64,000 nucleotides of DNA, from positions 529,997 to 593,996 of the forward strand of contig CAYYDR010000001.1 in assembly GCA_964470695.1 (NCBI GenBank). Direction: 5' to 3'. The notes beneath the pieces are model-generated. The model did no database searches and had not been told where the DNA came from. It saw nothing but the letters and a program-made list of their open reading frames with translations. Numbering within the stretch: the first letter of the stretch is position 1; each line of letters begins with the position of its first letter. The DNA is from an uncultured Gammaproteobacteria bacterium (GTDB lineage: Bacteria > Patescibacteriota > Patescibacteriia > Patescibacteriales > UBA12465). Position numbers and translations under genes: made by a program. Below, one piece after another: positions 23,583 to 54,255 of this stretch.

Positions 23583-23592
23583 AGGATTACAA

Positions 23593-32759: not shown

Positions 32760-32788
32760 TAGTAACGATAATTAAATTATGTTATAAT
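32760..32788 (+). promoter_or_regulatory. extended -10 promoter of the pilMN-pilO-like operon
   Basis: TAGTAA, 17 nt, TGT-TATAAT (32780-32788). Confidence 0.45.
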
Positions 32789-32815
32789 AAAACCATCAGT
32801 TCGGAACTCATAAAT

Positions 32816-34264
32816 ATGAATTTAACAAATATAATTTCCAACGAGGAGCCAGTCGGGGGACTTGAATTATCCGACAATACTATTAAATTTTCCCTGCTCA
32901 AAAAAAATGGATCTAGCTTAGAGGTAATTACCTTAGTCACGGCTGAAGAATCCAAGCAGGATAAGACGGGATATTTTATTAAAGACGAGGCCTCTCTAAC
33001 TAGTAAAATTAAAGAATTTGCCAATAAATACGGGATAAATTATGTTATTTTATCCATCCCCTCTGACTTAACTTTTGCTAAAACTTATTCTTTCCCGGGC
33101 ATAATGCCCGATGAAAAAGTGACGGATTCTATTAAGTTAATTGCCGAGCTTCAACTGCCGCAAAAACCAGCGGATATCTACTGGGATTCCCTTAACTACG
33201 ATAGTAAGCGAGAAGGAAAAAGCGAAAAATCGGTCCTGTTATCTTTTGCCAAAAAATCCTTAATTGATAATCTAATCGCTAATACTAAAAAAGCTGGGCT
33301 GAAAGTTATTGCCGTAGAAAGCCGCGCCATTAGTCTAGCTAGAGCTATAGAGCAAAAACCCGAAGAAGTGCTTTTAGTCGTTGAACGCGATAAAACAGCT
33401 ACTTCTTTTTATGTTATCAAAAATAATCAATTATTATTTTTACAATCATTAGATAATAAAAAAATAGGGGCAAATTTAAACCGGGAAATAAAACAAATCA
33501 TTAAATACTTTGAATGGCTAAGCCAACCTATTACCGGCCTATTCTTAAACGGACGCTTTGAAGCTAAGGAAATTAAAAGCTTGCCGATTAAACTAATTAA
33601 GCCGGAATTAAATAAAAAGATAAAAGCCATTAAGGCCATAAATCCTTCCTCGTTTGTTGTTTTAGGCGCCGCCCTGAGAGGGTCTTTACCGCGCCAAAGT
33701 GACAATAATATTAGTTTAATGGATGTTGGCACTGAAGAGGCCTACGAACAGGCTAAGGCGCAGGCGGGCGTTAATTTTTTGATGAGCATTACTATCGCCC
33801 TCGCCGCTTTTTTTATTATTGCTTTTTATTCCACCTGGACGCTTATCGCCATGACTCAGCGCAATTTCAATGAAGAAATAATATCCTTTAACAACACGGC
33901 TGAATCAGACCCCTATACTTTATCTAGCCGCGCCCAATCTTTTAACAAGATAATCCAGCAGGCTAGCGCCCTAGCCAAAACCAGTCCACACTGGAGTCTC
34001 GTCGTTAGCGAAATAAAATCCAGAATAAGCCCTAATATAACTATTAAAAACCTGGCTCTGACTGGCCCAGAAGATGTTTTATCATTAACTGGCACGGCTA
34101 AAAGCCGGGAAGATATTAACTCCCTAAGGCGAACTCTGGAAGAATCTAGATTACTAAAAAATGTTAATATTCCTTTAGATAACCTAGGCAAAAAAGAAGA
34201 TATTCCTTTTGCCGCAACCTTCCAAATTAAGAATTCTAAATTGATTTATAGCCAAAATCAATAA
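32816..34264 (+). CDS. pilM: type IV pilus assembly PilM-PilN fusion protein
   Basis: About 320-aa actin-like PilM-type N-domain. A TM helix follows (FLMSITIALAAFFIIAFYSTWTLIAM), then an ~135-aa external PilN-like domain. Confidence 0.8.
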   Translation: MNLTNIISNEEPVGGLELSDNTIKFSLLKKNGSSLEVITLVTAEESKQDKTGYFIKDEASLTSKIKEFANKYGINYVILSIPSDLTFAKTYSFPGIMPDEKVTDSIKLIAELQLPQKPADIYWDSLNYDSKREGKSEKSVLLSFAKKSLIDNLIANTKKAGLKVIAVESRAISLARAIEQKPEEVLLVVERDKTATSFYVIKNNQLLFLQSLDNKKIGANLNREIKQIIKYFEWLSQPITGLFLNGRFEAKEIKSLPIKLIKPELNKKIKAIKAINPSSFVVLGAALRGSLPRQSDNNISLMDVGTEEAYEQAKAQAGVNFLMSITIALAAFFIIAFYSTWTLIAMTQRNFNEEIISFNNTAESDPYTLSSRAQSFNKIIQQASALAKTSPHWSLVVSEIKSRISPNITIKNLALTGPEDVLSLTGTAKSREDINSLRRTLEESRLLKNVNIPLDNLGKKEDIPFAATFQIKNSKLIYSQNQ

Positions 34265-34277
34265 AATCTACACTAAA

Positions 34278-34838
34278 ATGAAAAATAAGAAATTCATCAT
34301 AAAATTAGGCTTAAAAATATTTTTTATCTTTTTAGTTATGGCTGTAACGGCTGTTAATATTAACTTTGCGGTTCGGGGTATAAAAAAAATAAATTTGACC
34401 ATGCAGGAAAAGAAGGAAATGAATTATCTCATTAAAAACCAAAGCGAAATAAATGCCAACATACAAAAAGATTTCAAAAATATTGACCCTGACTACGAAA
34501 AGAAAATAATGAATTCCCTGCCCTCCGTATATAATATCTTGACGTTTGTAGCGGTTATGGATGATCTAGCCGCTCGCCATTCCTTAGAACAAGTTATAAA
34601 TTTTAGCCAGCCGACTGGCCCTCTAGAACCTACTGAACCCTTAAAAATTTTTACCATTAATTTTACTCTAACTTTAAATAAAGTTACTATAGATAATTTT
34701 ATCAACTACTTAAAAGAATTTGAGGAATTGCCCTATTTTGCCTCAATTGATAATGCTAGTTTGGTCGGATCGGGCGCTAGCGGCTGGCTAGATAATTCAT
34801 CTCTTACCTTAAGCGGAAAACTATATGCTCGCCAATGA
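34278..34838 (+). CDS. PilO-like bitopic membrane protein (tentative)
   Basis: N-terminal TM helix, coiled-coil segment and ~100-aa C-domain. Position directly after pilMN. Assignment rests on synteny and topology only. Confidence 0.45.
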   Translation: MKNKKFIIKLGLKIFFIFLVMAVTAVNINFAVRGIKKINLTMQEKKEMNYLIKNQSEINANIQKDFKNIDPDYEKKIMNSLPSVYNILTFVAVMDDLAARHSLEQVINFSQPTGPLEPTEPLKIFTINFTLTLNKVTIDNFINYLKEFEELPYFASIDNASLVGSGASGWLDNSSLTLSGKLYARQ

Positions 34839-35484
34839 ATTAAAAAATGCCAAAATATTTAAATCAGGCGGACTAATTTATAGTGCGATTGGTATTTTAT
34901 ACTTAGTTGCTTTAGTCATAGCTTTTGTTTATGCCCTAGATTTCTTAACAAAGAATTTAAATATGACTTTTGCGCCTGTTGCCCCCCAAAATATTAATCA
35001 AAATTATACTTCTTTAAACATGGTGGAATATAACAGCCTGGCTCCTAAATTTAAATTCAGTCCTCAAAGTTCCCCTGCCCTACCAGCCGTGACTGACGAT
35101 CAAGCCAAAAGAGAAACAATTTTAGAGGCAACCCCGGCGCCCGAGTCGCTGGAGATTTCACCGGAAATGACCCCCGAACAATCACCGATCAACCCGCCTG
35201 AACAAAGAACTCAACTAAAAATATCAGTTATTAACTCCACCTCTAAAAATGGTTTAGCAGCTGAACTAAAAAAGCAGCTTAACGCCGCCGGCTATCCGGT
35301 AGAAAAAATTGGCAATCAAAAGCTCACGGAGATAAACACTATAATAAAAATGAAATCAGATCTTGATAATAATCCAACAGCCCTAGAAATAAAGCGAATT
35401 GTCGCAGGAAAATATTCGCCTATAACGGCCTTATTGCCAAATAGTAGTCCCTATGATTTAGAAATTGTAATCGGCCAAAAATAA
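34825..35484 (+). CDS. bitopic membrane protein with LytR_C-like C-terminal domain
   Basis: TM helix, Pro-rich linker, then KISVINSTSKNGLAAELKKQLNAAGYPVEKIGNQ, which resembles the LytR/CpsA/Psr C-terminal domain. Overlaps the pilO-like stop by 14 nt. Confidence 0.6.
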   Translation: MLANELKNAKIFKSGGLIYSAIGILYLVALVIAFVYALDFLTKNLNMTFAPVAPQNINQNYTSLNMVEYNSLAPKFKFSPQSSPALPAVTDDQAKRETILEATPAPESLEISPEMTPEQSPINPPEQRTQLKISVINSTSKNGLAAELKKQLNAAGYPVEKIGNQKLTEINTIIKMKSDLDNNPTALEIKRIVAGKYSPITALLPNSSPYDLEIVIGQK

Positions 35485-35502
35485 CCGCCAATAAAAATAA
35501 CC

Positions 35503-35532
35503 AAAAAGGAGCTTTTTAGAAAGCTCCTTTTT
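35503..35532. terminator. bidirectional terminator between the convergent pilus operons
   Basis: AAAAAGGAGCTTT pairs with AAAGCTCCTTTTT. Confidence 0.65.
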
Positions 35533-35552
35533 ATAATCTGGTTAAATCCAAA

Positions 35553-35966
35553 TTATTGCCAGGTATAACTACTAAACAATCCTTCCGCGTCTAAATTCAG
35601 ATTGACCTGGACAGATCTTCTTATCCCGCCTATCCGACCCTCCGATATTATCACTTTAGGGCTGCTACTAGCATCAACACTGACTGAAGCACAGCCCAGA
35701 TAAGAGCCGGAGCAACCAGAGGCAACTAAATCAATTGTATAGGAACCGGTATAATTTTTATTTCTTACCACCTTTTCTAAAGCGTCTTTAGCGCCCACTT
35801 GAGCAAAATTTAAGGCCTGGTTAGAATTCTGAAGACTGCTGGCGGACAAACTATCCGATAAACTAATGGAACTAATAAATAGGCCGATAGAAATTATTAA
35901 AACCAATAAACCCATAATTATGGGGATAGAGGCCACGCCTGGTTTTTCTATTTTAGGCATCAACAT
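35553..35966 (-). CDS. PilX-like / atypical minor pilin (no Glu+5)
   Basis: N-terminal KPGVASIPIIMGLLVLIISIGLFI hydrophobic segment. Last gene of the minor-pilin operon. Confidence 0.5.
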   Translation of the reverse strand: MLMPKIEKPGVASIPIIMGLLVLIISIGLFISSISLSDSLSASSLQNSNQALNFAQVGAKDALEKVVRNKNYTGSYTIDLVASGCSGSYLGCASVSVDASSSPKVIISEGRIGGIRRSVQVNLNLDAEGLFSSYTWQ

Positions 35967-35967
35967 A

Positions 35968-36501
35968 TTAAAAATCTTGATTCAAATCAACAGTAGTCTT
36001 CTGACCCTGACTATAATTTAAATCTGGGCTAAGACTATTATAAACACCTAATAAATTGATTTCTACGCTAATTCTTTTTTTATTTAAGACAATATTAGTA
36101 TTTTCTAGACGTAAAAAGTTAAGGTTAATAATATTAACTAAGTCGGAGCTAATATATTCAAGCGGCTGAGCACCCACTTGCCTGGTAATACGATTACCAG
36201 TAACGGTGTATTTTATTGATTGGCCGCCGACAGTAATGTCCAACAAGGTTGAGTTGGCGCCAACTACCGCGGGGCTACTAATAGCGGTAGCGGCTGAGAC
36301 ATCGCGCTTAATTTTTTCTATCACAAAATGAAAATTAGAATTCAGCTCGCTCTTTGCCTCAACATTAGAACCCCCTTTATTTAAAATTAAAAAAGTATTG
36401 GATACAATAATAGTCATGACGGCTAAAACAGCAATATATAAAGTCAGCTCCATTATCGTGAAGCCCGGCAACTTATTTTTTTTAGTCTGACTGAGTAACA
36501 T
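35968..36501 (-). CDS. prepilin-type minor pilin / pseudopilin
   Basis: Class III signal KLPG|FTIMELTLYIAVLAV with Glu at +5. Confidence 0.8.
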   Translation of the reverse strand: MLLSQTKKNKLPGFTIMELTLYIAVLAVMTIIVSNTFLILNKGGSNVEAKSELNSNFHFVIEKIKRDVSAATAISSPAVVGANSTLLDITVGGQSIKYTVTGNRITRQVGAQPLEYISSDLVNIINLNFLRLENTNIVLNKKRISVEINLLGVYNSLSPDLNYSQGQKTTVDLNQDF

Positions 36502-36525
36502 AATAAAATACGATCATCTTACGAA

Positions 36526-39500
36526 TTAAGGACTCCAATTAATTATAATATCATTGACTGTCGGCGTATAAGTGCCGCCGGTTGAGCAATCGGTAGAACA
36601 AATTTGCACTTTATATCTAAAATAACGTTTATTATTGAAAGAAGAAAAACAATTAAGCTCAATCGGGATGTCAGGATTCATATCATACCAATCGCTAGCG
36701 CCGCCCGCGCAGCTACTGCCAACATATGTCCAGGGGCCGCCAGAATTATCGGAAGCAGCCACCTGAAAACGGACCTTACCCTGATCAAAACTAGGGCCGC
36801 CTAGCAAACCGCGCCACATAATTGAATTATAGGCGGGACCATCAGCCACTCCGGTTGAATCAAATATAATAGAAGTTAATTCCCCATAGGCTGGGTAGCC
36901 AACCGCTACACTCGGCTTCCTCCATGTCACATAAAAATAAACACCAGAAGCCTGGTTAACTTCGGTCTGAGTACCAAGCTGGAAGCCGTTGGTAACGAAG
37001 GCCTTGATGCGCCCGGCCGCTTGAGCGGTCGTGATAAAATATTGGGTTAAGTCTCCGGCTAAAGTTTTTGGCCTTAGAACACCAGCCACAGCCGTATTTC
37101 TCTTTATCCAAGCGAGATCCGGATCAAGCCCGGGAGTAGTAATACTAAGATTATCAACTCCCGTACCAGTATAAGTACCAACCTTGAAGTTAGTGCCATT
37201 CTTGAATCCAAAATAAAAGAACAAACCAGCCGCACTATTAACGCTGGTACTATTACCAACTTGAAAACCATCCGTCGCAAAAGATTGAATATGATTAGCC
37301 GCATCAGCGGTCGCTGCATAAGAGCTAGTTAAGTCCCCAACGTGGCTAGAGGTTCTAAATACACCAGCTACAGCCGCTCCAGCTACTTTAACTGCCAACA
37401 TATCGGCCTGGAATGGCAGACGAGTAATACTACGATTATCAATGCCGTTGCCATAGAAGGAGCCAATAAAAAAATCTGACGATCCAGAATTAGTTTCTGG
37501 ATTCCAGGCATTACCAAAAGCCTGCCAATGATAGACAACGCCAACGGAATTAGTAGAGGCATGGGTATAGACGGTAAAACCATCAGAATTGATTGAAGTT
37601 ATTCCGCCCGCAAAGTTAGCTGTCGCCGCATCCAAATAGGCAGTGTAATCACCCGCCATTTGGCTGGTCCTAAATACTCCAGCCGTCGCGCCAGTGGTTT
37701 TAATCATGACTAAATCCGGTTTGAAATCTAACCCAGTAATATTTAGATACTGCCCGGTGCCTGTATATGTTCCAGTGGCCATCTTGAAAGTACCGGTAGA
37801 GTTACGGGTATTATTAGAACCGCCGAAGGCGGCGTAATAAATAGCATTGCCCGATCCATTAGAAGTAGCATTAGCGCCAATTTGAAAACCATCAGTGCGC
37901 AGAGCCTGAATAGAATCAACTAAATTAGCAGTGGCGGTAAAATAACTGGTACTATCACCATACGATTCGTCAATATTAAAAACTCCAGAAACAGCGGTAG
38001 TAGCATTGCCATTTTTTAGAAAAACAAAATCAGGAATAAAACCAACTCCAGTAATATTAGTATTATCAGTGGCATTGCCAGTATAGGTGCCCACTTTCAT
38101 AGAGCCAACCACCGCCTTGAAGGCCACAAAATAATAGATACCAGCACTGGCGTTATTGGTAGCGCCAACCGTAAACCCCGTGGCATCTAAAGTAGTAAAT
38201 AGGGCGCCGGCCGTATTCTGCGTCGTCGCCATAAAATATTGCCCGTAACTAGCGGGCATGGCCGAAGAACGCCAATTGGCCGCTACGGCCGTACTCTGTT
38301 TAGCAATCACTAGATCGGGCTGAAATCCAATAGTAACTGCTCTAGGGCTCGTTCCCGTGCCAGTATAGGAACCAACACAGAACTTCCCTGTCGCCGAGCA
38401 ATCTGAACCAGTAACCGCAATCCAGGTATATCTGGCGTTAGCGGTGTTAGCTAAAGTGGTGGTAACTGTAAAACCATCACTATTGATTATAATCGCGCCA
38501 GCAGTGTTGTCAGCGGTCGCCGAACCCAAATAGGCGGTGTTGAGAGCTGGCATAGCGCTCGTTTTCATGAGAGCTACGGCAGCATTGGTATTTGATTTCA
38601 AAATAATCATTTCTGGCTTAAAACCTAATCCGGTAATAGTTTTGGCTCCGCCGTTACCGATGTAATAACCGGTTTGAATGTTGTAGACTGGGGTAACGAC
38701 AGTCTGAGTAGAATTTTTCCTCCATGTCACATAAAAATAAACACCAGAAGCCTGGTTAACTTCGGTCTGAGTACCAAGCTGGAAGCCGTTGGTAACGAAG
38801 GCCTTGATGCGCCCGGCCGCTTGAGCGGTCGTGATAAAATATTGGGTTAAGTCTCCGGCTAAAGTTTTTGGCCTTAGAACACCAGCCACAGCCGTATTTC
38901 TCTTTATCCAAGCGAGATCCGGATCAAGCCCGGGAGTAGTAATACTAAGATTATCAACTCCCGTACCAGTATAAGTACCAACCTTGAAGTTAGTGCCATT
39001 CTTGAATCCAAAATAAAAGAACAAACCAGCCGCACTATTAACGCTGGTACTATTACCAACTTGAAAACCATCCGTCGCAAAAGATTGAATATGATTAGCC
39101 GCATCAGCGGTCGCTGCATAAGAGCTAGTTAAGTCCCCAACGTGGCTAGAGGTTCTAAATACACCAGCTACAGCCGCTCCAGCTACTTTAACTGCCAACA
39201 TATCGGCCTGGAATGGCAGACGAGTAATACTACGATTATCAATGCCGTTGCCATAGAAGGAGCCAATAAAAAAATCTGACGATCCAGAATTAGTTTCTGG
39301 ATTCCAGGCATTACCAAAAGCCTGCCAATGATAGACAACGCCAACGGAATTAGTAGAGGCATGGGTATAGACGGTAAAACCATCAGAATTGATTGAAGTT
39401 ATTCCGCCCGCAAAGTTAGCTGTCGCCGCATCCAAATAGGCAGTGTAATCACCCGCCATTTGGCTGGTCCTAAATACTCCAGCCGTCGCGCCAGTGGTTT

Positions 39501-40722: not shown

Positions 40723-41689
40723 AAGCTGTCTTTGCTAATTCTCTCATAATTTCCTGCGCTCTAGCTACGCCACCGTTATCTTCAACCTCAACCATCACTG
40801 TTATTAAACAAGGGCGATTGGGGATATAGATAATCCCAGAATCTAAAAATACCACTTCTTTATATTCTTCTCCGATTTTATGAGAGAAAACAGCGCCTTG
40901 AGGTAGACCGGATCCTAAAAATTCATTAAATTTTGTTTCCGACAACCAGCGTAAAATTTTCTGAGAATTATCTCTGTTTAAATAACTAGCATTATAAAGA
41001 GCCCGAAAAATACGAGAATATTCTTTAGCCGTGATGTTATAATCCTTATCAAATAACTCCTCCATGCCTAGGGCCTCAAACATATTAGTATAATCTTCAC
41101 TACTTAGATTACGAACTAAAATTTTATGAGAGGTATTATCAGAATTAATTAAAGTTTCCCTAATTAATTCCTCAATCGTAAATTTAGTACCAGCCGACTT
41201 TTTATATAATTCGCCAAAACGCTCGTCCTTATCCTCGGGAAAAAGCACTAATTCATTAGACAATTTCCACTCACCGTCTTCCACTTTTTTCATAGCCGCA
41301 AAAACAGTCGGCATTTTACTTAATGAGGCCGGCCAAAAACGCGAATCCTGATTAATAGAAATATTGGCGCCAGTATTTAAAAACTCAAAATAAACGCCTA
41401 TTCTATTGCCGCTTGCCTCATACTTAGCGACAATTTCTTTCATTTTTTTACGAACTGGCTCAATCGTACTAAAAAAATATTTTTGCTCAATCACGCTTCT
41501 TGCCGGGTCTATTAAAGGATACTGATTAATTTCCTCAATAACAGAGCTGGGGTTATTGTTTTTCGTTACCAAAAAAATAGCTAATATATTTATTAATAAT
41601 AAAACCGATATTCCGGCAATAAATCTAATCTTGTTTTTATCTATTTTTGGCTGGCTTTCAGGGCCAGCTTGTTTAAATTTATGTCCCAT
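40700..41689 (-). CDS. membrane-anchored class-A beta-lactamase-like serine hydrolase
   Basis: N-terminal TM helix. SxxK (ASLSKM), SDN (INSDNT) and a KTG-like HKIG motif in the correct order and spacing. Confidence 0.7.
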   Translation of the reverse strand: MGHKFKQAGPESQPKIDKNKIRFIAGISVLLLINILAIFLVTKNNNPSSVIEEINQYPLIDPARSVIEQKYFFSTIEPVRKKMKEIVAKYEASGNRIGVYFEFLNTGANISINQDSRFWPASLSKMPTVFAAMKKVEDGEWKLSNELVLFPEDKDERFGELYKKSAGTKFTIEELIRETLINSDNTSHKILVRNLSSEDYTNMFEALGMEELFDKDYNITAKEYSRIFRALYNASYLNRDNSQKILRWLSETKFNEFLGSGLPQGAVFSHKIGEEYKEVVFLDSGIIYIPNRPCLITVMVEVEDNGGVARAQEIMRELAKTAYDYVANN

Positions 41690-41699
41690 AAATATTTTA

Positions 41700-42353
41700 T
41701 TAATTCGCTTGTATTTTTAAACTACCGGGCGTACTAATATCAATACTGGTGGCGCTATCATAAACTGTGCTAGGGCAAACAGCCGGCCCAGCCCCGGTCC
41801 CAGTCCAAGTAGTTTGGCCGCAAACCTTATTGCGCCAACGAGTTAAATAAGTATCTTTACTAATAGTCCGCCCATTCCAAGCAACGGTAATGGTAAGCTC
41901 TTGAGTTGAGGGGTCGTCACTATTACCAGCTGTACAGGGTGGCACGCCAGCTGTCGTTATGATATTTCTAGTAGTATTATCACGACAAACATTACTAACG
42001 GAAAAATAACGGGTATACACGCGGTCATTAACAAGAATAGTCTCTTCTCCACTGTTAACTATCCAAGCTCCGCCTAATTTTGACGGATAATAATGACTGG
42101 CCGGACTCTTAGTTAAATTATAGATATTCTGCCACTTAGAAAATCCAATACTTTCTGTCGCCTCAATTGCTTCATCAATCAAATTAACGGCCGCCATATT
42201 CTCCATGGCAATTTTATTGGCATTTATGCTAGAAACAATAATCTGCGCCACTAAGGGGGCAATAATAGCAAAAACGCCAATAACTACTAAGAGCTCTAAT
42301 AATAAAGCTCCTGGTAATTTACGACTCTTAAAGTTTTGATAGCTTATGCTCAT
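41700..42353 (-). CDS. prepilin-type minor pilin (PilV/PilW-like position)
   Basis: KLPG|ALLLELLVVIGVFAIIA with Glu+5. Cys-containing C-terminal domain. Confidence 0.75.
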   Translation of the reverse strand: MSISYQNFKSRKLPGALLLELLVVIGVFAIIAPLVAQIIVSSINANKIAMENMAAVNLIDEAIEATESIGFSKWQNIYNLTKSPASHYYPSKLGGAWIVNSGEETILVNDRVYTRYFSVSNVCRDNTTRNIITTAGVPPCTAGNSDDPSTQELTITVAWNGRTISKDTYLTRWRNKVCGQTTWTGTGAGPAVCPSTVYDSATSIDISTPGSLKIQAN

Positions 42354-42355
42354 GA

Positions 42356-42826
42356 TTAATTAATAAGCCCCTGAGTTTTGACGGAAATTATTTTTTGATT
42401 TGCCCCAAAAATTAAAACAATGTCAGCGACGTTGGTAGTCCCGGTTATTTTATTAAAAATAATATCAATATTATTCCCTTCCGCCGGCGAACTAAATTTT
42501 ATATTATTGTTCAAATAATTATCGCTTTCAATCACCTTGGCAACATCCGAGTAATTAGTTGGCGTGGAAAAAATCTGATAATAATCCGAGCTAGAATTTA
42601 TAAAGCGTATCCCCCAGTTGTTATTATCCTGCCCGTTCATAGCCCTGTCCCGAACATTTCTTAAATCAAAAGCGATAGTTCTGGCCTGATTATCAATCAT
42701 ATTATCCAGGGCAAAACTACCATAAAAATCTTTACTAAAAAGAGCGATGCCGACCAGAATAGCAATAACCAGCATTAACTCCAATAAAGTAAAGCCCGGC
42801 TTATTTTGGCAATAACGCTTAGTCAT
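42356..42826 (-). CDS. prepilin-type minor pilin (FimT/GspH-like)
   Basis: KPG|FTLLELMLVIAILVG class III signal. Confidence 0.85.
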   Translation of the reverse strand: MTKRYCQNKPGFTLLELMLVIAILVGIALFSKDFYGSFALDNMIDNQARTIAFDLRNVRDRAMNGQDNNNWGIRFINSSSDYYQIFSTPTNYSDVAKVIESDNYLNNNIKFSSPAEGNNIDIIFNKITGTTNVADIVLIFGANQKIISVKTQGLIN

Positions 42827-42836
42827 TAAATACTGC

Positions 42837-44069
42837 TTAATATTTAAAACTACCTACCATCTGATAAACGGGCATTAAAATTGCTAAAGCAATCAACCCA
42901 ACCGTTAGGCCCATAAATAAAAGCAAAGCGGGCTCTAAAAATGTAGTTAAATCCTTTAAAGCATTATCAACATCATCTTCATAAAAATCCGAAAAATTCT
43001 TTAAAACTTTCCCTAAAGTGCCGGTTTTTTCCCCCACGCCGACTAAACTAACTAATATCCGAGGAAATAAATCAGGCTCTTTCTTTAAGGCCTGGGATAA
43101 AGGAACACCGTTTCTAATTTCCTTATCAACTTTAGCCACCGCCTTTTCATAGCGGCTATTGCCGATTGACTTAGCACTTAAATTAAGAGCTTCGGAAATA
43201 GACAAAGAGCTATCAACTAAGCCGCCTAAAGTCCGAGCCAAACGAACTAAAATTATTTTTTTAACTAAAGTATTCACAACTGGCACTCTAAAAACGAGGT
43301 GGGAAAAAAATTTTTGGCCTGCCAATGTCCTTTTAAAATAAATAATTAAGGCGCTTAAACCGCCTACTAGTAATAAATCCAGCCAAAAGCTATAAGTTAA
43401 AAAGTTACTAATTTGCACCAAGATTCTAGTTAAAAGAGGCAGCTCAATATTATTCTGCGTAAAGGTCTTAGCTAATTTAGGTAAAACAAAAACCAGCATT
43501 AAAACTACTATGCCGATAGAAGTTAGCACCAGGATCAAAGGATAAGCTAAAGCCGACTTAACTCTCTTAATTAGTTTATACTCACGGGATAAATGACTGC
43601 TTAACTCTTCCAGGGCCTCGCTTAAACGGCCCGAAACTTCACCGGCCTTAATCATACCGATAAAAAGAGGTGAGAAATAACGGCTGTTTTTTTCAAACGC
43701 CTTAGAAAGAGGCTGACCGTTTTGAATATCAGTCTGGGCATCAACTAAAAATTTCTTAACAACTTTTTTTCCTGAATCAGCGATAAGGATATCTAAGGCT
43801 TCATTAAGACTTAATCCGGATTTTATAGTGGCCGTCAGGTTACGAATTAAAATTATCTTATCTTGAAAACTAAAACTTTCAAAAATAGCCCGTGAAGTAA
43901 AGGGCGTAATCATTAATTCTGAACCACGCGCGTTTTTCAGAGAAATTTTAACAGGGATAAGACGTTTTTGATTCAGGGCGGCGGCAGCTTCCTCGCTATT
44001 TAAGGCGTTAATTTCGTCATTAACTATACTGCCCTCCTCATTAACCGCCTCATAGATAAATAAACTCAT
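42837..44069 (-). CDS. pilC: type IV pilus platform protein (GspF/PilC family)
   Basis: Two GspF-type repeats with 3 TM helices. Sits directly after pilB. Confidence 0.93.
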   Translation of the reverse strand: MSLFIYEAVNEEGSIVNDEINALNSEEAAAALNQKRLIPVKISLKNARGSELMITPFTSRAIFESFSFQDKIILIRNLTATIKSGLSLNEALDILIADSGKKVVKKFLVDAQTDIQNGQPLSKAFEKNSRYFSPLFIGMIKAGEVSGRLSEALEELSSHLSREYKLIKRVKSALAYPLILVLTSIGIVVLMLVFVLPKLAKTFTQNNIELPLLTRILVQISNFLTYSFWLDLLLVGGLSALIIYFKRTLAGQKFFSHLVFRVPVVNTLVKKIILVRLARTLGGLVDSSLSISEALNLSAKSIGNSRYEKAVAKVDKEIRNGVPLSQALKKEPDLFPRILVSLVGVGEKTGTLGKVLKNFSDFYEDDVDNALKDLTTFLEPALLLFMGLTVGLIALAILMPVYQMVGSFKY

Positions 44070-44085
44070 AAATCAATAGCTAATT

Positions 44086-45813
44086 TTATTCGCTAGTCAC
44101 TCGCAATACTTCTTCAATCGTGGTTACTCCCCGACGCACCTTATCCAGGCCATCCTCAAACATAGAAACCATGCCGCTAGAAATAGCGGCCTTTCTTATA
44201 TCGTTAGATGATAACGACTTAGAAATAGAGTCTCTAATATCGTCATTGACGGCTAAAATTTCAAAAATACCAATCTGCCCGGAGAAACCGCTCCCTTCAC
44301 AGACTTTACAGCCCCGGCCGCGGAAAATTTCTTTAGGCAAAAGTTTATTTCTAGCACTAAGAGATTTCTTCAGCCCCGAAAAAGCTAACTGCCTAAGTAC
44401 CTCTTCTTTTTGAAGCTTAGGTAACTTATAGGATTCAATGCAAGAAGAACATATTTTTCGCACCAAGCGCTGAGCGATAACAATGTTTAAAGTAGAAGAA
44501 AGTAAAAATGGCATGGTCCCCATGTCTAAAAGCCGCGGAATAGCCGAGGGGGCGTCATTAGTATGCAAGGAAGACAAAACTAAATGGCCAGTTAAAGCCG
44601 AGTGGACGGCAATATCCGCCGTTTCATTATCTCTAATTTCGCCGATCATGATGATATCCGGATTCTGACGCAATAAGCTACGCAGGCCATTAGAAAAAGT
44701 GATGCCCGCCTTAACATTGACCTGAGTTTGGTTAATATTAGAAACTTCATACTCAATCGGATCTTCAATCGTCGTAATATTTACTTTCGGGGTATTTAAA
44801 ACATGGAGAATTGAATACAAAGTCGTGGTTTTCCCGTGCCCAGTCGGACCAGTCACTAATATCATGCCGTGCGGCTTTTTAATTTCCTCTAGGATTATCT
44901 TCTCGGATTTTTCGCTAACGCCTAAGTCTATCAGAGAAAGCGGCTTAGAAGAGCTCTTTAAAAGGCGCATCTCCACCTTCTCGCCATTTAAAACCGGCAT
45001 GACATTCACGCGGATATCTATTTCGTTCTTATCCTCAATATTAAAATGAAAACGGCCATCTTGCGGGACGCGGTGCTCGTCAATCTGCATGTTAGCCAAA
45101 ATTTTAACGCGCGCGATTAAAATCGGGTCTATGTCTTTTGGCAAAGAAAGAATTTCCTGCATAATACCATCAACCCGATAACGAACTAGTAACTTTTTAG
45201 CTAGCGGCTCAAAATGAATATCAGAAGCATTCATAATCGCGGCATTTTCTAAAATGCTATTAAGGATGGTAATAATAGGCAGGGCCTCGGCCATTCTAGA
45301 TAAATCATTTTCTGACCCTAGAGAGGCAGACTGCTTCAAATTTTCTTCAATAATCTGATTAAAGCTAAAGCCCATTTTTTTCTTATACTGTTTAAAGGTA
45401 TAGGCAAGACTAGATGATGACGTTAAATAAACTTCCAGCCAGACATCGTATTTATTGCGCAAGAAATTGAGCGTGTCTAAATCCAGAGGATTAAGCATGG
45501 CTAATTTAGCTGTTTTTTTGGTCTTATCAAAATCAAAAAAAATCACTCCTTTATTCTTAACAAAGGCTTCCGGTAATAAGTCCAAAACCTCTGGAGCAAT
45601 TACTACTTTTTTTAAATTGACTATTGGAACGTCAAAATAAGGCGCTAAAAGCTCCAATAAGTAATCTTCCGTTATTTCCTCCTGACCTATTAATATTTCC
45701 GCGATATCTTGGCCAGAATGGGAGGCTTCGGCTTTAGCGGCCGAAAAAACTTTTTCGCTAATTAGGCCTGAATCCAATAAAATCTTTTTCAAGACTTCAT
45801 CCTTGATAAACAT
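44086..45813 (-). CDS. pilB: type IV pilus assembly ATPase (GspE/PilB family)
   Basis: Walker A GPTGHGKTT, Asp box, Walker B MIGEIRD, His box, tetracysteine CSSC...CKVC. Confidence 0.95.
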   Translation of the reverse strand: MFIKDEVLKKILLDSGLISEKVFSAAKAEASHSGQDIAEILIGQEEITEDYLLELLAPYFDVPIVNLKKVVIAPEVLDLLPEAFVKNKGVIFFDFDKTKKTAKLAMLNPLDLDTLNFLRNKYDVWLEVYLTSSSSLAYTFKQYKKKMGFSFNQIIEENLKQSASLGSENDLSRMAEALPIITILNSILENAAIMNASDIHFEPLAKKLLVRYRVDGIMQEILSLPKDIDPILIARVKILANMQIDEHRVPQDGRFHFNIEDKNEIDIRVNVMPVLNGEKVEMRLLKSSSKPLSLIDLGVSEKSEKIILEEIKKPHGMILVTGPTGHGKTTTLYSILHVLNTPKVNITTIEDPIEYEVSNINQTQVNVKAGITFSNGLRSLLRQNPDIIMIGEIRDNETADIAVHSALTGHLVLSSLHTNDAPSAIPRLLDMGTMPFLLSSTLNIVIAQRLVRKICSSCIESYKLPKLQKEEVLRQLAFSGLKKSLSARNKLLPKEIFRGRGCKVCEGSGFSGQIGIFEILAVNDDIRDSISKSLSSNDIRKAAISSGMVSMFEDGLDKVRRGVTTIEEVLRVTSE

Positions 45814-45851
45814 CTGATAAAAATTTAATTTATACTAAAGTTTCTTTTAAA

Positions 45852-45880
45852 ATTATAACACATTTTTCATAAAAACTATA
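45852..45880 (-). promoter_or_regulatory. extended -10 promoter of the pilB-to-pilX-like operon
   Basis: Minus strand TGT-TATAAT (45860-45852) with a weak -35 element. Confidence 0.4.
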
Positions 45881-45910
45881 TCGCCGTGGCGGAAAATCAC
45901 GGCCTAGCTC

Positions 45911-46525
45911 CTAAACGACAAACATGAAAAAATAAATCAAATAATTGCCGCCCGACAAAGCTAACAAAAGGCTAATTATTAACGGCCAAAAAATATCTAT
46001 TTTCTTATTTTTAAAAATAAATAAATTAACAATTGAACTAAAGATAGATAATAAGAAAAATAAAGGAATTAATATAAGCAGTTTAGGCCAACCAACTAGC
46101 AGGCAAGCTAAAGAAATTAGGGCCGCTTCTTCCAGGCTAACGGCTTCTTGGTTATAAAATCTAACTAGGCGAAAAATACCATAAAAAACAGCCGCCACAA
46201 CCAGACTCAATAAAACGGCCTGCCAAAGATGAATATAAATATAGCCAATAAAGTAGCTAATAGGCTGGGTAGGCGGCAAAAATAATCTACTCAAAGGCGA
46301 GGAAGACCAAACGTAATACTGGAGCCAGCTTAAAAATAAATTAAATAAAATAATAAAAATAGACCAAATGCAGATTAGTTTTTGGTGGGTTAAAAAACCT
46401 AATTTAATAGTCTTAGAATAATTACTATTTCTTAAAATACGCCTAATAATTATTAAGATAACAACCACTAAACTCAAAACAAAGGGCAACCAAATTAAAA
46501 AATGGCCTAATATATAATTTCCCAT
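45911..46525 (-). CDS. polytopic membrane protein of unknown function (between pilA and pilB)
   Basis: 204 aa with about 6 TM helices. Contains a single Asp, so it is not a canonical A24 prepilin peptidase. Confidence 0.6.
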   Translation of the reverse strand: MGNYILGHFLIWLPFVLSLVVVILIIIRRILRNSNYSKTIKLGFLTHQKLICIWSIFIILFNLFLSWLQYYVWSSSPLSRLFLPPTQPISYFIGYIYIHLWQAVLLSLVVAAVFYGIFRLVRFYNQEAVSLEEAALISLACLLVGWPKLLILIPLFFLLSIFSSIVNLFIFKNKKIDIFWPLIISLLLALSGGNYLIYFFMFVV

Positions 46526-46590
46526 ATTAACTGCACGGATTAACTATACAAAAATTAACTATTAATAAACTTTTATAGATTAACTATATC

Positions 46591-46620
46591 AAAAAATGGC
46601 CCCTTTTAAAAGAGGCCATT
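46591..46620 (-). terminator. intrinsic terminator after the major pilin gene
   Basis: Minus strand: ATGGCCTCTTTT pairs with AAAAGGGGCCAT (one mismatch), followed by U6. Confidence 0.6.
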
Positions 46621-46642
46621 TTAAATAAGAATCTACTAGAAA

Positions 46643-47341
46643 CTAGAAATCAGTTCCGGCGCCCAATAAGGACAAATCAGTACCAACTTCGTAATAAGCC
46701 GAGTTATTGCCGCCATCCTTAGTCATTTTAGGATCATCGGTTTTAAAGGCAGTGCTCTCTAAAACAGCGTCAATTTCGTATCTTAGAGTTTTTTCGCTGC
46801 AAACATAGCGATAAACCAAATCGGTGCTGGTCGGAGCAGAGGCTGTGGTAACGGTGTTAATCGGATCAGTCGGCATATTAGAAATTGGCGAACCGCCGGC
46901 CATGGTTGTTAAATTAACCGGCAACCAGCCAGTTCCATCTACTTTACCAGAGTTAGCCGCGGTAACCTGACCAGGAGTAACAAGCGCCGCTGCTGCGCCG
47001 TCAAGAGTAGTACCGTTAGTCAAAGTCTTAGCGCCGCTGTCAATACTGTAGAAAATTTTATCGCCAGCAACATACGAGGTGTCCGCGCTGGCATTACCCT
47101 TACAAGTAGCGTTAGTAGCCGCACCGCCCATCATAGGAGTGGTTGTGCTAGTAGAATACAGGCCTAGAGCGGTCTTAACCGTCGCTAAATCTGACATTCT
47201 TTGTGAGTCACGAGACTTTTTTAAAGCTTCTGCCGGATCTAATACCAAAATCAGAATAACTGATAAAACAGCGATAATCGCTATCACAATCAATAATTCC
47301 AACAGAGTAAAGCCCGATTTTTTTAAAGTTTTTGTGTCCAT
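46643..47341 (-). CDS. pilA: major type IV pilin (prepilin-type N-terminal methylation domain)
   Basis: KSG|FTLLELLIVIAIIAVLSVIL. Monocistronic with its own promoter and terminator. T/S/A-rich globular part with two Cys. Confidence 0.88.
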   Translation of the reverse strand: MDTKTLKKSGFTLLELLIVIAIIAVLSVILILVLDPAEALKKSRDSQRMSDLATVKTALGLYSTSTTTPMMGGAATNATCKGNASADTSYVAGDKIFYSIDSGAKTLTNGTTLDGAAAALVTPGQVTAANSGKVDGTGWLPVNLTTMAGGSPISNMPTDPINTVTTASAPTSTDLVYRYVCSEKTLRYEIDAVLESTAFKTDDPKMTKDGGNNSAYYEVGTDLSLLGAGTDF

Positions 47342-47398
47342 AAATTTTAATAAAATGTTTCAAATAAATTTATGAAACGATTTTACTTTTATTTATTA

Positions 47399-47428
47399 AT
47401 TATATAAAAAATGGTAACAAATTTTCAA
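47399..47428 (-). promoter_or_regulatory. candidate sigma70 promoter of pilA
   Basis: Minus strand: TTGAAA (47428-47423), 18 nt, TATAAT (47404-47399). Confidence 0.45.
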
Positions 47429-47464: not shown

Positions 47465-47848
47465 TTAAGACAGTATTTTCTTTATTCTATCAATTATACC
47501 TTGAATAGGGGTATCGGATTTAATAATATAATCTTTAACGCCAAGCTCCATTACCCTTTTTCTATCCTCTTCTTGGCCTAAATTAGTCGCGACAATAACC
47601 GGAATGGTACGAAAAATTTTATTTTTACTCATTTCATCTAGGACCTCAAACCCGGTTTTAAGGGGCATAATAAGATCAAGCAAAACCAAATCAGGCTTTT
47701 CTTTTTTTATTAATTCCAGGCCCTCAGCTCCATTAGAAGCAATGACAGGCAAAAACCCTTCTAAAGAAAGCTTGGTTTCATAAATTTTCTTCAAAAATTT
47801 ATCATCCTCAACTACTAATATCTTATTTTTCTTTTGAGCTTTAGCCAT
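47465..47848 (-). CDS. single-domain response regulator (receiver only)
   Basis: ILVVEDD ... LVLLDLIMP ... ATNLG ... IIKS. No output domain. Confidence 0.9.
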   Translation of the reverse strand: MAKAQKKNKILVVEDDKFLKKIYETKLSLEGFLPVIASNGAEGLELIKKEKPDLVLLDLIMPLKTGFEVLDEMSKNKIFRTIPVIVATNLGQEEDRKRVMELGVKDYIIKSDTPIQGIIDRIKKILS

Positions 47849-53907: not shown

Positions 53908-54255
53908 TTACCAGAAACTCATGGCCGCTTGAGCAGCTCTAAATTCCTGGTCAGTTCCGTCTGGAGCCGCGCGGTAAACCCGCTCCGCTCTCATTACATC
54001 TTTAAGTTTCTTAGCCGCTTTTAGCAAAAACTGGAAAACTGTCTCATCATAATTAACTGAATAAAGACTTAACAGTTTTTCTTCTGGAGTATTTTCAAAC
54101 AATCTTTGCATTCTCTCAGCGTCGCCCATCTTTTTAGATAGAGCTATCAGACCGAGTAGCTGCTGATCTTTTAATTCATCCAAATAACACTGGAATTTGA
54201 ACTCAAAGATGAACACTTGAAACCATCTCACGACAACAAATTTGATTTTTTTCAC
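53908..54255 (-). CDS. hypothetical protein (115 aa, helical)
   Basis: ORF with matching transcription signals. No family recognised. Confidence 0.55.
   Translation of the reverse strand: MKKIKFVVVRWFQVFIFEFKFQCYLDELKDQQLLGLIALSKKMGDAERMQRLFENTPEEKLLSLYSVNYDETVFQFLLKAAKKLKDVMRAERVYRAAPDGTDQEFRAAQAAMSFW

What the first reader, a model, noticed from the sequence alone, without database searches (positions are those of the whole stretch)
32760..47428. 14.6-kb type IV pilus superlocus with an unusual component set
**Seen in sequence**
- Two convergent operons sit beside a monocistronic pilin gene.
- The plus-strand operon has a PilM-PilN fusion, a PilO-like bitopic protein and a bitopic protein ending in a LytR_C-like domain.
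- The minus-strand side has pilA with its own promoter and terminator, an unknown 6-TM protein, and then pilB, pilC, four pilin-like genes, a serine hydrolase and the giant protein.
- No secretin (PilQ), no PilP, no retraction ATPase (PilT) and no recognisable A24 prepilin peptidase lie in the locus. All four prepilin-type genes nevertheless carry canonical G|F/A-x-x-x-E cleavage sites.

**Inference**
- This is a monoderm-style pilus machine.
- The LytR_C-domain protein and the serine hydrolase may replace the cell-wall or alignment components.
- The prepilin peptidase must be encoded elsewhere or be non-canonical.

**Caveat**
- Both pil operons use TGTTATAAT extended -10 elements, but so does sod. 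I treat this as the generic promoter form of this genome, not a pil-specific signal.
Basis: partly seen in the sequence, partly recalled or inferred. Interest (0 to 1): 0.55.

Follow-up and report, generated by a model that had tools for sequence, protein, structure and literature searches.

The report
Candidate-phyla pilus locus with uncharacterised accessory genes
This is a real type IV pilus gene cluster of an ultrasmall (Patescibacteria/Parcubacteria) bacterium. Its "odd" parts list is the normal one for that lineage, but it includes a widespread six-helix membrane protein, always next to the pilin gene, that matches nothing known.

Summary
Window 32816-47341 holds pilM-N fusion, pilO and a LytR_C protein on the plus strand. 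They converge on pilB, pilC, two minor pilins, a penicillin-binding-type serine hydrolase, a 1398-aa surface protein and two more minor pilins. pilA and a 6-TM gene lie upstream. No A24 peptidase, PilT, PilQ or PilP matched among the 63 ORFs of the 64-kb window that I scanned.

The set is not unusual for its lineage. The same order recurs in dozens of 80 related Parcubacteria loci, and secretin-less pili are already described for these bacteria.

New detail:
- **6-TM protein.** It belongs to an unannotated family of at least 844 clusters, within 1 kb upstream of pilB in 46 of 59 informative loci. It has no conserved Asp, no A24 similarity and no solved-structure match, so it is not a recognisable prepilin peptidase.
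- **Giant protein.** A conserved 130-aa C-terminal domain carries a swappable payload, here two identical copies of a six-repeat beta module also seen in phage proteins.
- **Fifth pilin-like gene.** The 137-aa protein lacks Glu5 (GspK/PilX-like).
- **Regulators.** A receiver-only regulator and a PAS kinase flank pilA.

Where the peptidase is cannot be settled from this window.

The parts
32816..34264 (+). PilM-PilN fusion (482 aa): cytoplasmic actin-like PilM, one TM helix, external PilN domain. The architecture resembles GspL.
   Evidence: Pfam PilM_2 31 bits (cutoff 27) and PilN 27 bits (cutoff 22.8). NCBIfam pilM E 1.3e-8. Fused homologues occur in 38 related loci. TGTTATAAT at 32780-32788.
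34278..34838 (+). PilO-like bitopic protein (186 aa)
   Evidence: No Pfam hit alone. The family profile A3 hits M. xanthus PilO 3jc8 at E 2.2e-7 over residues 25-164. 2 of 31 homologues hit Pfam PilO.
34825..35484 (+). Bitopic protein with a Pro/Ser/Glu-rich linker and a C-terminal LytR_C domain. Its start overlaps the pilO stop by 14 nt.
   Evidence: Pfam LytR_C 32.8 bits (cutoff 22.2). The family profile hits 2m5y at E 3.1e-6. Present in 29 related loci.
35502..35533 (.). Bidirectional intrinsic terminator between the convergent operons
   Evidence: 14-bp stem. Folds at -19.0 and -19.1 kcal/mol on the two strands, z -5.1 and -4.7.
35553..35966 (-). Minor pilin-like protein (137 aa) without Glu5 (G|VASIP). 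A GspK/PilX-like cap candidate.
   Evidence: Sequence. The family N-terminus G|[VIA]A[ST]LP is conserved in 18 homologues. Found in 25 loci.
35968..36501 (-). Minor pilin (177 aa), G|FTIME
   Evidence: Sequence. Weak N_methyl and ComGF hits, all below cutoff.
36526..40722 (-). 1398-aa surface protein. It has an N-terminal signal anchor, two identical 590-aa DUF7483 blocks (DNA 36917-38685 and 38717-40485), and a conserved 130-aa C-terminal domain (residues 1267-1398).
   Evidence: DUF7483 E 8.5e-69. Exact duplication. The C-terminal domain alone is conserved in 33 loci. AF2 pLDDT above 90 with six all-beta repeats per block. Phage protein matches at E 8.8e-40.
40700..41689 (-). Membrane-anchored penicillin-binding/class A beta-lactamase-fold serine hydrolase (329 aa)
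   Evidence: Pfam Beta-lactamase2 E 7.8e-39. NCBIfam bla_class_A 86.5 bits, below the cutoff of 200. S122xxK, S183DN and K271[IV]G are invariant in 20 of 20 homologues, and no conserved Glu lies in the Glu166 region.
41700..42353 (-). Minor pilin (217 aa), G|ALLLE. Weakly PilV/ComGE-like.
   Evidence: Sequence. NCBIfam ComGE 3.6e-4 and PilV 2.5e-3, both below cutoff.
42356..42826 (-). Minor pilin (156 aa), G|FTLLE. GspH/FimU-like.
   Evidence: N_methyl 22.3 bits (cutoff 21.2). GspH E 1.8e-7 and TIGR02532 above cutoff.
42837..44069 (-). PilC platform protein (410 aa)
   Evidence: T2SSF E 5.7e-59, two domains.
44086..45813 (-). PilB extension ATPase (575 aa)
   Evidence: T2SSE E 4.8e-128 plus MshEN. 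75% identity to Ca. Falkowbacteria PilB. TGTTATAAT at 45852-45860.
45911..46525 (-). 6-TM protein of an unannotated family ('TM204'), between pilA and pilB
   Evidence: No Pfam or NCBIfam hit. AF2 pLDDT 91.6. 844 family clusters. Synteny. No fold or sequence match in PDB.
46643..47341 (-). Major pilin PilA (232 aa), G|FTLLE, with its own promoter (47428-47399) and terminator (about 46594-46622)
   Evidence: N_methyl 30 bits. Promoter matches 11 of 12 positions. Terminator -17.1 kcal/mol.
47465..47848 (-). Receiver-only response regulator next to pilA. A probable regulator of the locus.
   Evidence: Response_reg E 9.3e-21. A homologue lies in 55 related loci, usually directly upstream of pilA.
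47969..49591 (+). PAS histidine kinase, divergent from the regulator
   Evidence: HisKA, HATPase_c and PAS_9. A kinase-regulator-pilA order occurs in many related loci.

Best explanation
**What it is**
The locus is the lineage-typical type IV pilus gene cluster of a Parcubacteria-group (Patescibacteria) bacterium with a single membrane.

**How it most likely works**
- PilB powers extension on the PilC platform.
- The PilM-N fusion and PilO form the alignment ring.
- The LytR_C protein that follows them probably ties the ring to the cell wall (inferred).
- PilA, expressed from its own strong promoter and terminator, forms the fibre.
- Four minor pilins prime assembly and form the tip. They are GspH-like, PilV-like, a third with Glu5, and a Glu5-less cap.
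- A Sec-exported protein encoded among them docks on that tip through its conserved 130-aa C-terminal domain. It displays a swappable binding module, here two copies of a phage tail-fibre-like DUF7483 array (inferred from position, by analogy with PilY1 and PilX2).
- The membrane-anchored hydrolase of the penicillin-binding type, with an intact SxxK/SDN/KxG site, probably trims peptidoglycan locally so that the tip complex can pass (inferred).
- The 6-TM protein next to pilA is a conserved, lineage-specific accessory factor. It most likely acts on membrane-embedded pilin before assembly, by stabilising, presenting or modifying it. It is not the peptidase.
- Prepilin cleavage is most likely done by a canonical PilD encoded elsewhere in the genome.
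For: **Core parts**
- They are identified above curated thresholds or by profile.
- Genes are packed with gaps or overlaps of about 24 nt or less, from pilB to the last minor pilin.

**Synteny**
- The same order recurs in the 80 related loci: regulator, pilA, 6-TM gene, pilB, pilC, two minor pilins, [hydrolase], C-terminal-domain protein, two minor pilins. pilMN, pilO and LytR_C lie adjacent or convergent.
- The 6-TM family is present in 49 of 59 loci that have upstream sequence, and in 46 it lies within 1 kb of pilB on the same strand.
- Two of three family members looked up independently show regulator, pilin, 6-TM gene, PilB, PilC.

**Individual parts**
- The conserved residues of the 6-TM family (Q69, Y70, W73, Y91, F92, Y95, G145, W146, P147) lie at the predicted outer ends of its helices.
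- The hydrolase catalytic motifs are invariant.
- DUF7483 matches phage proteins, and tail-fibre and minor-tail proteins appear lower in the same list.

**Literature**
- These bacteria have widespread type IV pili without PilQ, and PilD is widespread among them (PMC6744442).
- A Saccharibacteria pilus locus without PilT carries a non-pilin tip protein, PilX2 (PMC11623550).
Against: - No experiment exists for any Parcubacteria pilus.
- PilD and PilT could not be looked for outside the 64-kb window, so a missing peptidase is not excluded.
- The roles of LytR_C, the hydrolase, the 6-TM protein and the giant protein rest only on synteny and domain type.
- The hydrolase is present in only 19 loci. 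The 6-TM gene is absent from about 10 of 59 loci, so neither is universally required.
- DUF7483 proteins also occur outside pilus loci, next to LysM/WxL proteins in Saccharibacteria.
- One 6-TM family member lies in a non-pilus context and one is fused to VKOR.
- The C-terminal domain of the giant protein was modelled with low confidence.
Confidence: 0.8

Rival explanations
1. The 6-TM protein is the missing prepilin peptidase: a non-A24 intramembrane enzyme that cleaves the G|F/A-x-x-x-E leader in these bacteria.
For: - No A24 hit was found in the window or within 10 kb of pilB in the 80 related loci.
- The gene sits between pilA and pilB, where pilD sits in many bacteria, and is strongly conserved there.
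- It is polytopic, with a confident fold that matches nothing known.
- A semi-conserved Glu lies at the start of TM4.
Against: - The family has no conserved Asp, Ser, His or Cys. Only Q, Y, W, F, G and P are invariant or nearly so.
- hhalign against GspO gives a probability of 0.1%.
- The conserved residues lie at the predicted outer face, whereas prepilin cleavage takes place at the cytoplasmic face (established for PilD).
- PilD is reported as widespread in these bacteria (PMC6744442).
- About 10 of 59 loci lack the gene.
Confidence: 0.04
2. The machine is mainly a DNA-uptake (competence) pilus rather than an adhesion or motility pilus. The hydrolase and the giant protein would then be unrelated cargo that happens to lie in the operon.
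For: - No PilT lies in the window.
- The minor pilins give weak ComGD, ComGE and ComGF hits.
- These bacteria are thought to scavenge DNA, and they encode ComEC widely (PMC6744442).
- The hydrolase is present in only 19 loci, and DUF7483 proteins occur outside pilus loci.
Against: - PilM, PilN and PilO are present, and PilA is large at 232 aa, unlike Firmicute Com systems (established knowledge).
- A C-terminal-domain protein sits among the minor pilins in 33 loci.
- The hydrolase and giant genes overlap by 23 nt inside a tight operon.
- The payload resembles phage receptor-binding arrays, which fits adhesion.
- The two functions do not exclude each other.
Confidence: 0.12
3. The 6-TM protein works in oxidative folding or modification of the pilin, for example as a membrane partner of the VKOR/MdbA disulfide pathway or as a carrier of a lipid-linked glycan. 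It would not be an assembly factor as such.
For: - One family member is fused to a VKOR domain at E 2.3e-20.
- PilA has two Cys and a Ser/Thr-rich C-terminal half.
- VKOR and MdbA have been proposed to fold pilins in these bacteria (PMC6744442).
- The conserved aromatic cluster lies at the outer membrane face.
- Pilin-modifying enzymes (TfpO, TfpW) are encoded directly after pilA in Pseudomonas (PMC11841053).
Against: - Only one fusion was seen among the 150 listed hits, and it lies in a non-pilus context.
- No VKOR gene lies in any of the 80 loci.
- The family has no conserved Cys and no glycosyltransferase signature.
Confidence: 0.2

Closest known systems
Type IV pili of Patescibacteria/CPR, as surveyed by Meheust et al. 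2019 (PMC6744442) and dissected in Saccharibacteria TM7x (PMC11623550)
   Same: - PilB, PilC, PilM, PilN, PilO and class III pilins, with no secretin.
- A locus can lack PilT, as TM7x locus 2 does.
- A large non-pilin protein with a non-canonical signal peptide acts as the tip adhesin (PilX2).
   Different: - The TM7x locus 1 carries PilD and PilT inside the locus.
- TM7x PilM and PilN are named as separate proteins.
- Those papers, as far as I could read them, do not describe a 6-TM gene after pilA, a LytR_C partner or a penicillin-binding-type hydrolase.
- PilX2 is a beta-propeller, whereas the payload here is DUF7483.
TfpY/TfpX/TfpZ/FimB pilin accessory proteins of Pseudomonadota (PMC11841053)
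   Same: - A small membrane protein of about 200-245 aa encoded directly downstream of pilA.
- No recognisable enzymatic domain.
- TfpY is needed for optimal pilus assembly and interacts with the major and minor pilins.
   Different: TfpY-like proteins have three TM helices plus a periplasmic beta-rich globular domain. The protein here is six helices with no soluble domain, and no sequence relationship was detected.
PilY1 with the FimU-PilVWX minor-pilin set (Pseudomonas, Myxococcus)
   Same: - A large non-pilin secreted protein is encoded inside the operon of four core minor pilins, one of which lacks Glu5.
- It has a variable N-terminal adhesive part and a conserved C-terminal part.
   Different: - No PilY1 (Neisseria_PilC) Pfam hit and no propeller match.
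- The conserved C-terminal domain is only about 130 aa.
- The payload is a tandem beta-repeat array shared with phage proteins.
GspL of type II secretion systems
   Same: A single polypeptide with a cytoplasmic actin-like domain, one TM helix and an external ferredoxin-like domain. This is the same layout as the PilM-PilN fusion here.
   Different: The sequence matches PilM_2 and PilN rather than GspL, and the system has a true PilA and no secretin.
Dedicated peptidoglycan-remodelling enzymes of envelope-spanning machines (for example FlgJ, EtgA and TagX; from my own knowledge)
   Same: A cell-wall-active enzyme encoded within the operon of the machine that must cross the wall.
   Different: Those are lytic transglycosylases, muramidases or L,D-endopeptidases. 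The enzyme here is a membrane-anchored serine hydrolase of the class A beta-lactamase/DD-peptidase fold, and its substrate is untested.

Membership tests
Type IV pilus system (T4aP-like, monoderm form) | PilB-type extension ATPase (T2SSE) | tested here: met
   T2SSE E 4.8e-128 plus MshEN
Type IV pilus system (T4aP-like, monoderm form) | PilC/GspF platform protein | tested here: met
   T2SSF E 5.7e-59, two domains
Type IV pilus system (T4aP-like, monoderm form) | Pilins with a class III signal peptide (G|F/A-x-x-x-E) | tested here: met
   N_methyl is above cutoff for PilA and the 156-aa pilin. The motif is visible in four genes. The fifth lacks Glu5.
Type IV pilus system (T4aP-like, monoderm form) | PilM/PilN/PilO alignment proteins | tested here: met
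   PilM_2 and PilN are above cutoff. PilO is supported by a profile match to 3jc8 at E 2.2e-7.
Type IV pilus system (T4aP-like, monoderm form) | A24 prepilin peptidase | tested here: not met
   No hit among the 63 window ORFs scanned or in the 80 related loci. The rest of the genome could not be searched.
Type IV pilus system (T4aP-like, monoderm form) | PilT retraction ATPase (defines retractile T4aP only) | tested here: not met
   The window holds no second T2SSE protein. Every PilB-like ORF in the related loci is 444 aa or longer. The rest of the genome is not testable.
A24 prepilin peptidase (candidate: 6-TM protein) | Two catalytic Asp, the second in a GxGD motif | tested here: not met
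   No conserved Asp in alignments of 41, 44 or 38 sequences
A24 prepilin peptidase (candidate: 6-TM protein) | Sequence or profile similarity to Peptidase_A24 | tested here: not met
   No Pfam hit at E up to 0.1. hhalign against E. coli GspO gives a probability of 0.1%.
TfpY/FimB-like pilin accessory proteins (candidate: 6-TM protein) | Three N-terminal TM helices plus a periplasmic beta-sheet domain | tested here: not met
   The AF2 model is six helices, all alpha, with no soluble domain. The TfpY architecture is taken from PMC11841053.
TfpY/FimB-like pilin accessory proteins (candidate: 6-TM protein) | Encoded directly downstream of the major pilin gene | tested here: met
PilY1 (candidate: 1398-aa protein) | C-terminal PilY1/PilC beta-propeller domain | tested here: not met
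   No Neisseria_PilC Pfam hit and no propeller among the Foldseek hits. The C-terminal 130 aa were modelled poorly, so their fold is unknown.
PilY1 (candidate: 1398-aa protein) | Non-pilin protein encoded within the core minor-pilin operon | tested here: met
Class A beta-lactamase (candidate: 329-aa hydrolase) | SxxK, SDN and KTG-type motifs | tested here: met
   S122xxK, S183DN and K271[IV]G are invariant in 20 of 20 homologues
Class A beta-lactamase (candidate: 329-aa hydrolase) | Omega-loop Glu166 (deacylation base), and the NCBIfam bla_class_A score above cutoff | tested here: not met
   No conserved Glu between residues 205 and 225. The score of 86.5 bits is below the cutoff of 200. It belongs to the Pfam Beta-lactamase2 superfamily only.
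LytR_C domain proteins | Pfam LytR_C above the gathering score | tested here: met
   32.8 bits against a cutoff of 22.2. Profile hit to 2m5y at E 3.1e-6.

The most novel reading that the evidence does not exclude
The 6-TM family (at least 844 clusters at 50% identity, no annotation, no solved-structure match, wedged between pilA and pilB) is a new core component of the Parcubacteria pilus machine that handles membrane-embedded pilin. At its most novel, it would be a new kind of pilin receptor, chaperone or processing factor that does part of the job done by PilD, TfpY or the PilS transmembrane domain in model bacteria.
Probability: 0.35. Interest if true: 0.7.

Novelty: new variant of a known kind. 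Interest (0 to 1): 0.45.

Why it matters
Type IV pili are thought to be the main organ by which ultrasmall episymbiotic bacteria find and hold their hosts and take up DNA. Experimental work so far exists only for Saccharibacteria.

This analysis gives a clade-wide parts list for the much larger Parcubacteria group and points to four testable additions to the textbook machine:
- a 6-TM partner of the pilin;
- a LytR_C wall-side partner of PilMNO;
- an operon-encoded hydrolase of the penicillin-binding type;
- a modular tip protein whose binding module is shared with phages and changes copy number.

If the 6-TM family proves necessary for piliation, it would be a new conserved pilus component. 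It would also serve as a marker gene for annotating these loci.

Tried and rejected
**The 6-TM protein as a divergent A24 peptidase: rejected**
- No conserved Asp.
- No Pfam or NCBIfam hit.
- hhalign against GspO gave a probability of 0.1%.

**Fold assignment for the 6-TM model: nothing found**
- Foldseek against PDB gave a best E of 3.7 and TM-scores of 0.27 or less.
- The family profile against PDB sequences gave 0 hits.

**First single-sequence homology search for the 6-TM protein: misleading**
- It found only 2 proteins, which made the protein look like an orphan.
- blastp on the related loci and a profile search then showed a large family.

**The giant protein as a PilY1-type propeller: not supported**.

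**VKOR near the 6-TM genes in the related loci: none found**.

**Extra ORFs between the 6-TM gene and pilB in seven loci: not pilus parts**
- They are IS200/RAYT-like or PaaX-like insertions.

**PilD and PilT status of Falkowbacteria from paper supplements: not available**
- No supplements are held for that paper.

**DUF7483 in the literature: no paper found**.

Full report
**1. What is in the window**

ORF listing and translation give two gene sets.

On the plus strand:

| Coordinates | Product |
|---|---|
| 32816-34264 | 482 aa |
| 34278-34838 | 186 aa |
| 34825-35484 | 219 aa |

On the minus strand, in order of transcription:

| Coordinates | Product |
|---|---|
| 47848-47465 | 127 aa |
| 47341-46643 | 232 aa |
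| 46525-45911 | 204 aa |
| 45813-44086 | 575 aa |
| 44069-42837 | 410 aa |
| 42826-42356 | 156 aa |
| 42353-41700 | 217 aa |
| 41689-40700 | 329 aa |
| 40722-36526 | 1398 aa |
| 36501-35968 | 177 aa |
| 35966-35553 | 137 aa |

From pilB to the last gene, the gaps and overlaps are about 24 nt or less. This fits a single operon of about 10.3 kb.

**2. Identities**

- Pfam places PilM_2 (residues 15-225) and PilN (398-452) in the same 482-aa protein, both above the gathering scores.
- Pfam also gives LytR_C for the 219-aa protein and Beta-lactamase2 (E 7.8e-39) for the 329-aa protein.
- The 1398-aa protein matches DUF7483 in eight stretches (E 8.5e-69).
- The 410-aa protein is T2SSF. The 575-aa protein is T2SSE plus MshEN. 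The 232-aa and 156-aa proteins carry N_methyl.
- The 186-aa protein has no Pfam hit on its own. A profile of 31 homologues from related loci matches M. xanthus PilO (3jc8) at E 2.2e-7, and two homologues reach Pfam PilO.
- The LytR_C family profile matches PDB entry 2m5y, deposited as a putative tuberculin related peptide, at E 3.1e-6.
- Four proteins show G|F/A-x-x-x-E: PilA and the 156-, 217- and 177-aa proteins.
- The 137-aa protein has G|VASIP. Its family conserves G|[VIA]A[ST]LP without Glu5. This is the hallmark of the GspK/PilX-type cap (established knowledge).
- NCBIfam gives a GspH-like signal for the 156-aa pilin (E 1.8e-7) and weak PilV, ComGE and ComGF signals for the others, all below cutoff.

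**3. Signals**

- The pilA promoter (TTGAAA-18-TATAAT, 47428-47399) is present.
- The pilA terminator folds at -17.1 kcal/mol with z -3.6.
- The bidirectional terminator at 35502-35533 folds at -19 kcal/mol on both strands.
- TGTTATAAT lies upstream of pilMN, pilB and sod. It occurs 6 times in the window against 1.26 expected.

**4. Absences**

- I scanned 63 ORFs of 83 aa or more across the whole 64-kb window against Pfam.
- There is no Peptidase_A24 hit, no second T2SSE (PilT) protein, no secretin and no PilP.
- phmmer with E. coli GspO against every ORF of 60 aa or more, in the window and in the 80 related loci, found nothing at E up to 10.
- This test uses a single sequence and has limited reach.

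**5. The layout is lineage-typical**

- A PilB-anchored scan of GTDB species representatives returned 80 loci. All are Patescibacteria, and the closest are Ca. Falkowbacteria at 75% PilB identity.
- blastp and HMM labelling show a recurring order: [kinase], regulator, pilA (one to four copies), 6-TM gene, pilB, pilC, 156-like pilin, 217-like pilin, [hydrolase], C-terminal-domain protein, 177-like pilin, 137-like pilin. pilMN, pilO and LytR_C lie adjacent or convergent.
- The counts below are limited by contig ends.

| Component | Related loci with it |
|---|---|
| pilMN fusion | 38 |
| pilO | 33 |
| LytR_C | 29 |
| Hydrolase | 19 |
| 137-like cap pilin | 25 |
| 6-TM gene | 58 |
| Receiver-only regulator | 55 |

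- No PilT-sized PilB paralogue appears in any locus.
- The literature already reports widespread secretin-less type IV pili in these bacteria, with PilD "evenly distributed and widespread" (PMC6744442). It also reports a Saccharibacteria locus without PilT (PMC11623550).
- The component set is therefore unusual only against Gram-negative models.

**6. The 6-TM protein**

- A single-sequence word-indexed search found only two relatives. Related loci showed many more.
- A profile search returned 38 proteins, all unnamed or "hypothetical" and without Pfam domains.
- An exhaustive HMMER scan of 1.84 billion representatives found 844 clusters at E up to 1e-3. Of these, 127 are at E up to 1e-30. Nearly all of the 150 listed are stand-alone proteins of about 150-250 aa.
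- The gene is present in 49 of 59 loci that have at least 1.5 kb upstream of pilB. In 46 of them it lies within 1 kb on the same strand.
- Two of three family members looked up independently show regulator, pilin, 6-TM gene, PilB, PilC. The third lies elsewhere.
- AlphaFold2 gives a confident all-helical six-TM model, with pLDDT 91.6 and pTM 0.83.
- Q69 and W73 are invariant in all three alignments. Y70, Y91 and Y95 are invariant or nearly so. F92, G145, W146 and P147 are conserved in most sequences. A Glu near residue 133 is semi-conserved. No Asp, Ser, His or Cys is conserved.
- By the positive-inside rule, the conserved residues sit at the outer ends of TM2 and TM3 and at the TM4-TM5 turn. 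This placement is an inference.
- There is no match to PDB by profile or by Foldseek, where the best E is 3.7. There is no relation to A24, with an hhalign probability of 0.1%.
- One member, P0174, is fused to a VKOR domain at E 2.3e-20, in a non-pilus context. No VKOR gene lies in the 80 loci.
- Conclusion: this is a conserved, pilin-linked accessory membrane protein of unknown biochemistry, and it is not a recognisable protease.
- The nearest functional precedent is the TfpY/FimB class, encoded after pilA in Pseudomonadota (PMC11841053). That class has a different architecture.

**7. The giant protein**

- Only its last 130 or so residues (1267-1398) are conserved across 33 loci. The upstream part ranges from about 140 to 1700 aa and is unrelated between lineages.
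- Most members have Sec-type N-termini, and two have pilin-type N-termini.
- Here the payload is two 590-aa DUF7483 blocks. They are encoded by two 100%-identical 1769-bp copies separated by a unique 31-bp spacer.
- Comparable internal duplications, at 87-100% identity, occur in five related genes. One close relative has a single block.
- This argues for real and recurrent copy-number change. The exact copy number in short-read assemblies is uncertain.
- The block has at least 1232 homologues at about 50% identity across these bacteria. In Saccharibacteria it lies next to LysM/WxL proteins and not next to pilus genes.
- Its model is confident (pLDDT above 90) and shows six all-beta repeats of about 98 aa.
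- PDB matches are weak and include no propeller.
- Predicted phage proteins match at E 8.8e-40 to 1e-28. Tail-fibre and minor-tail proteins appear further down the same list.
- I read the protein as a modular tip adhesin: a conserved docking domain plus an exchangeable receptor-binding array. It is analogous in position to PilY1 and to TM7x PilX2, but it is not a member of the PilY1 family.

**8. The hydrolase**

- It has an N-terminal membrane anchor.
- S122xxK, S183DN and K271[IV]G are invariant in 20 of 20 homologues.
- No conserved Glu lies in the Glu166 region.
- The NCBIfam class A score is far below cutoff, at 86.5 against 200 bits.
- It is best described as a serine hydrolase of the penicillin-binding/DD-peptidase type. 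A local role in peptidoglycan trimming is an inference.

**9. Verdict**

- The interpretation as a monoderm-style pilus is right and already known for these bacteria.
- "Unusual" should read "lineage-typical".
- The peptidase question cannot be closed from this window, but the one local candidate fails the A24 tests.
- The added value lies in four points: the unannotated 6-TM family, the conserved LytR_C third gene, the operon-borne hydrolase, and the modular, duplicating tip protein.

Noticed in passing
window 36917-38685 and 38717-40485; L006, L009, L010, L032 and L043 giant-gene homologues: An exact 1769-bp tandem duplication with a unique 31-bp spacer lies inside the giant gene. Similar duplications of 1.2-1.8 kb at 87-100% identity recur in five related genomes, and one close relative (L005) has a single copy. 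This suggests recurrent copy-number change or homogenisation. The true copy number may be higher than the assembly shows.
   Followed up: partly
P0174 (locus L086 51-1160): A 369-aa protein fuses a VKOR domain (E 2.3e-20) to a domain of the 6-TM family, in a non-pilus neighbourhood. It is the only clear fusion among the 150 best family hits, and it hints at a link to disulfide formation.
   Followed up: partly
window 36529-38718 (model m739444ec3ec1): The DUF7483 six-repeat beta module matches predicted structures of uncultured phage proteins at E 8.8e-40 to 1e-28. Tail-fibre and minor-tail proteins appear lower in the list. The module therefore seems to be shared between surface proteins of these bacteria and phage receptor-binding proteins.
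   Followed up: partly
L018 9113-9796, L021 9282-9833, L024 3408-4082, L025 9182-9790, L028 9084-9836, L042 9240-9794, L051 8781-9458: In seven related loci an extra ORF sits between the 6-TM gene and pilB. It is either IS200/RAYT-like (motif YCLMPNHFHLLL) or a PaaX-like protein of about 184 aa. This intergenic spot seems to be a recurrent insertion site.
   Followed up: no
window 47465-47848 (-) and 47969-49591 (+): A receiver-only response regulator and a PAS histidine kinase flank pilA.
   Followed up: partly
window 1900-4374 (-): An 824-aa protein with TrwB/VirD4-type coupling-protein domains (TrwB_AAD_bind, T4SS-DNA_transf, TraG-D_C). It may be a DNA-translocation ATPase and could bear on DNA uptake in this organism.
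   Followed up: no
window 11938-13665 (-), 4376-4858 (-), 53908-54255 (-): Three ORFs (575, 160 and 115 aa) have no Pfam hit at E up to 1e-3.
   Followed up: no
window 21085-24621 (-): An FeFe-hydrogenase large subunit and a NuoF-like flavoprotein are separated by a 245-aa protein with only a weak, sub-threshold match to a membrane-domain family. This is a small fermentative hydrogen module.
   Followed up: no
window 1145, 5144, 32056, 32780, 41035, 45852: TGTTATAAT occurs 6 times against 1.26 expected. Three copies lie directly upstream of pilMN, pilB and sod, which fits a generic extended -10 promoter form.
   Followed up: yes
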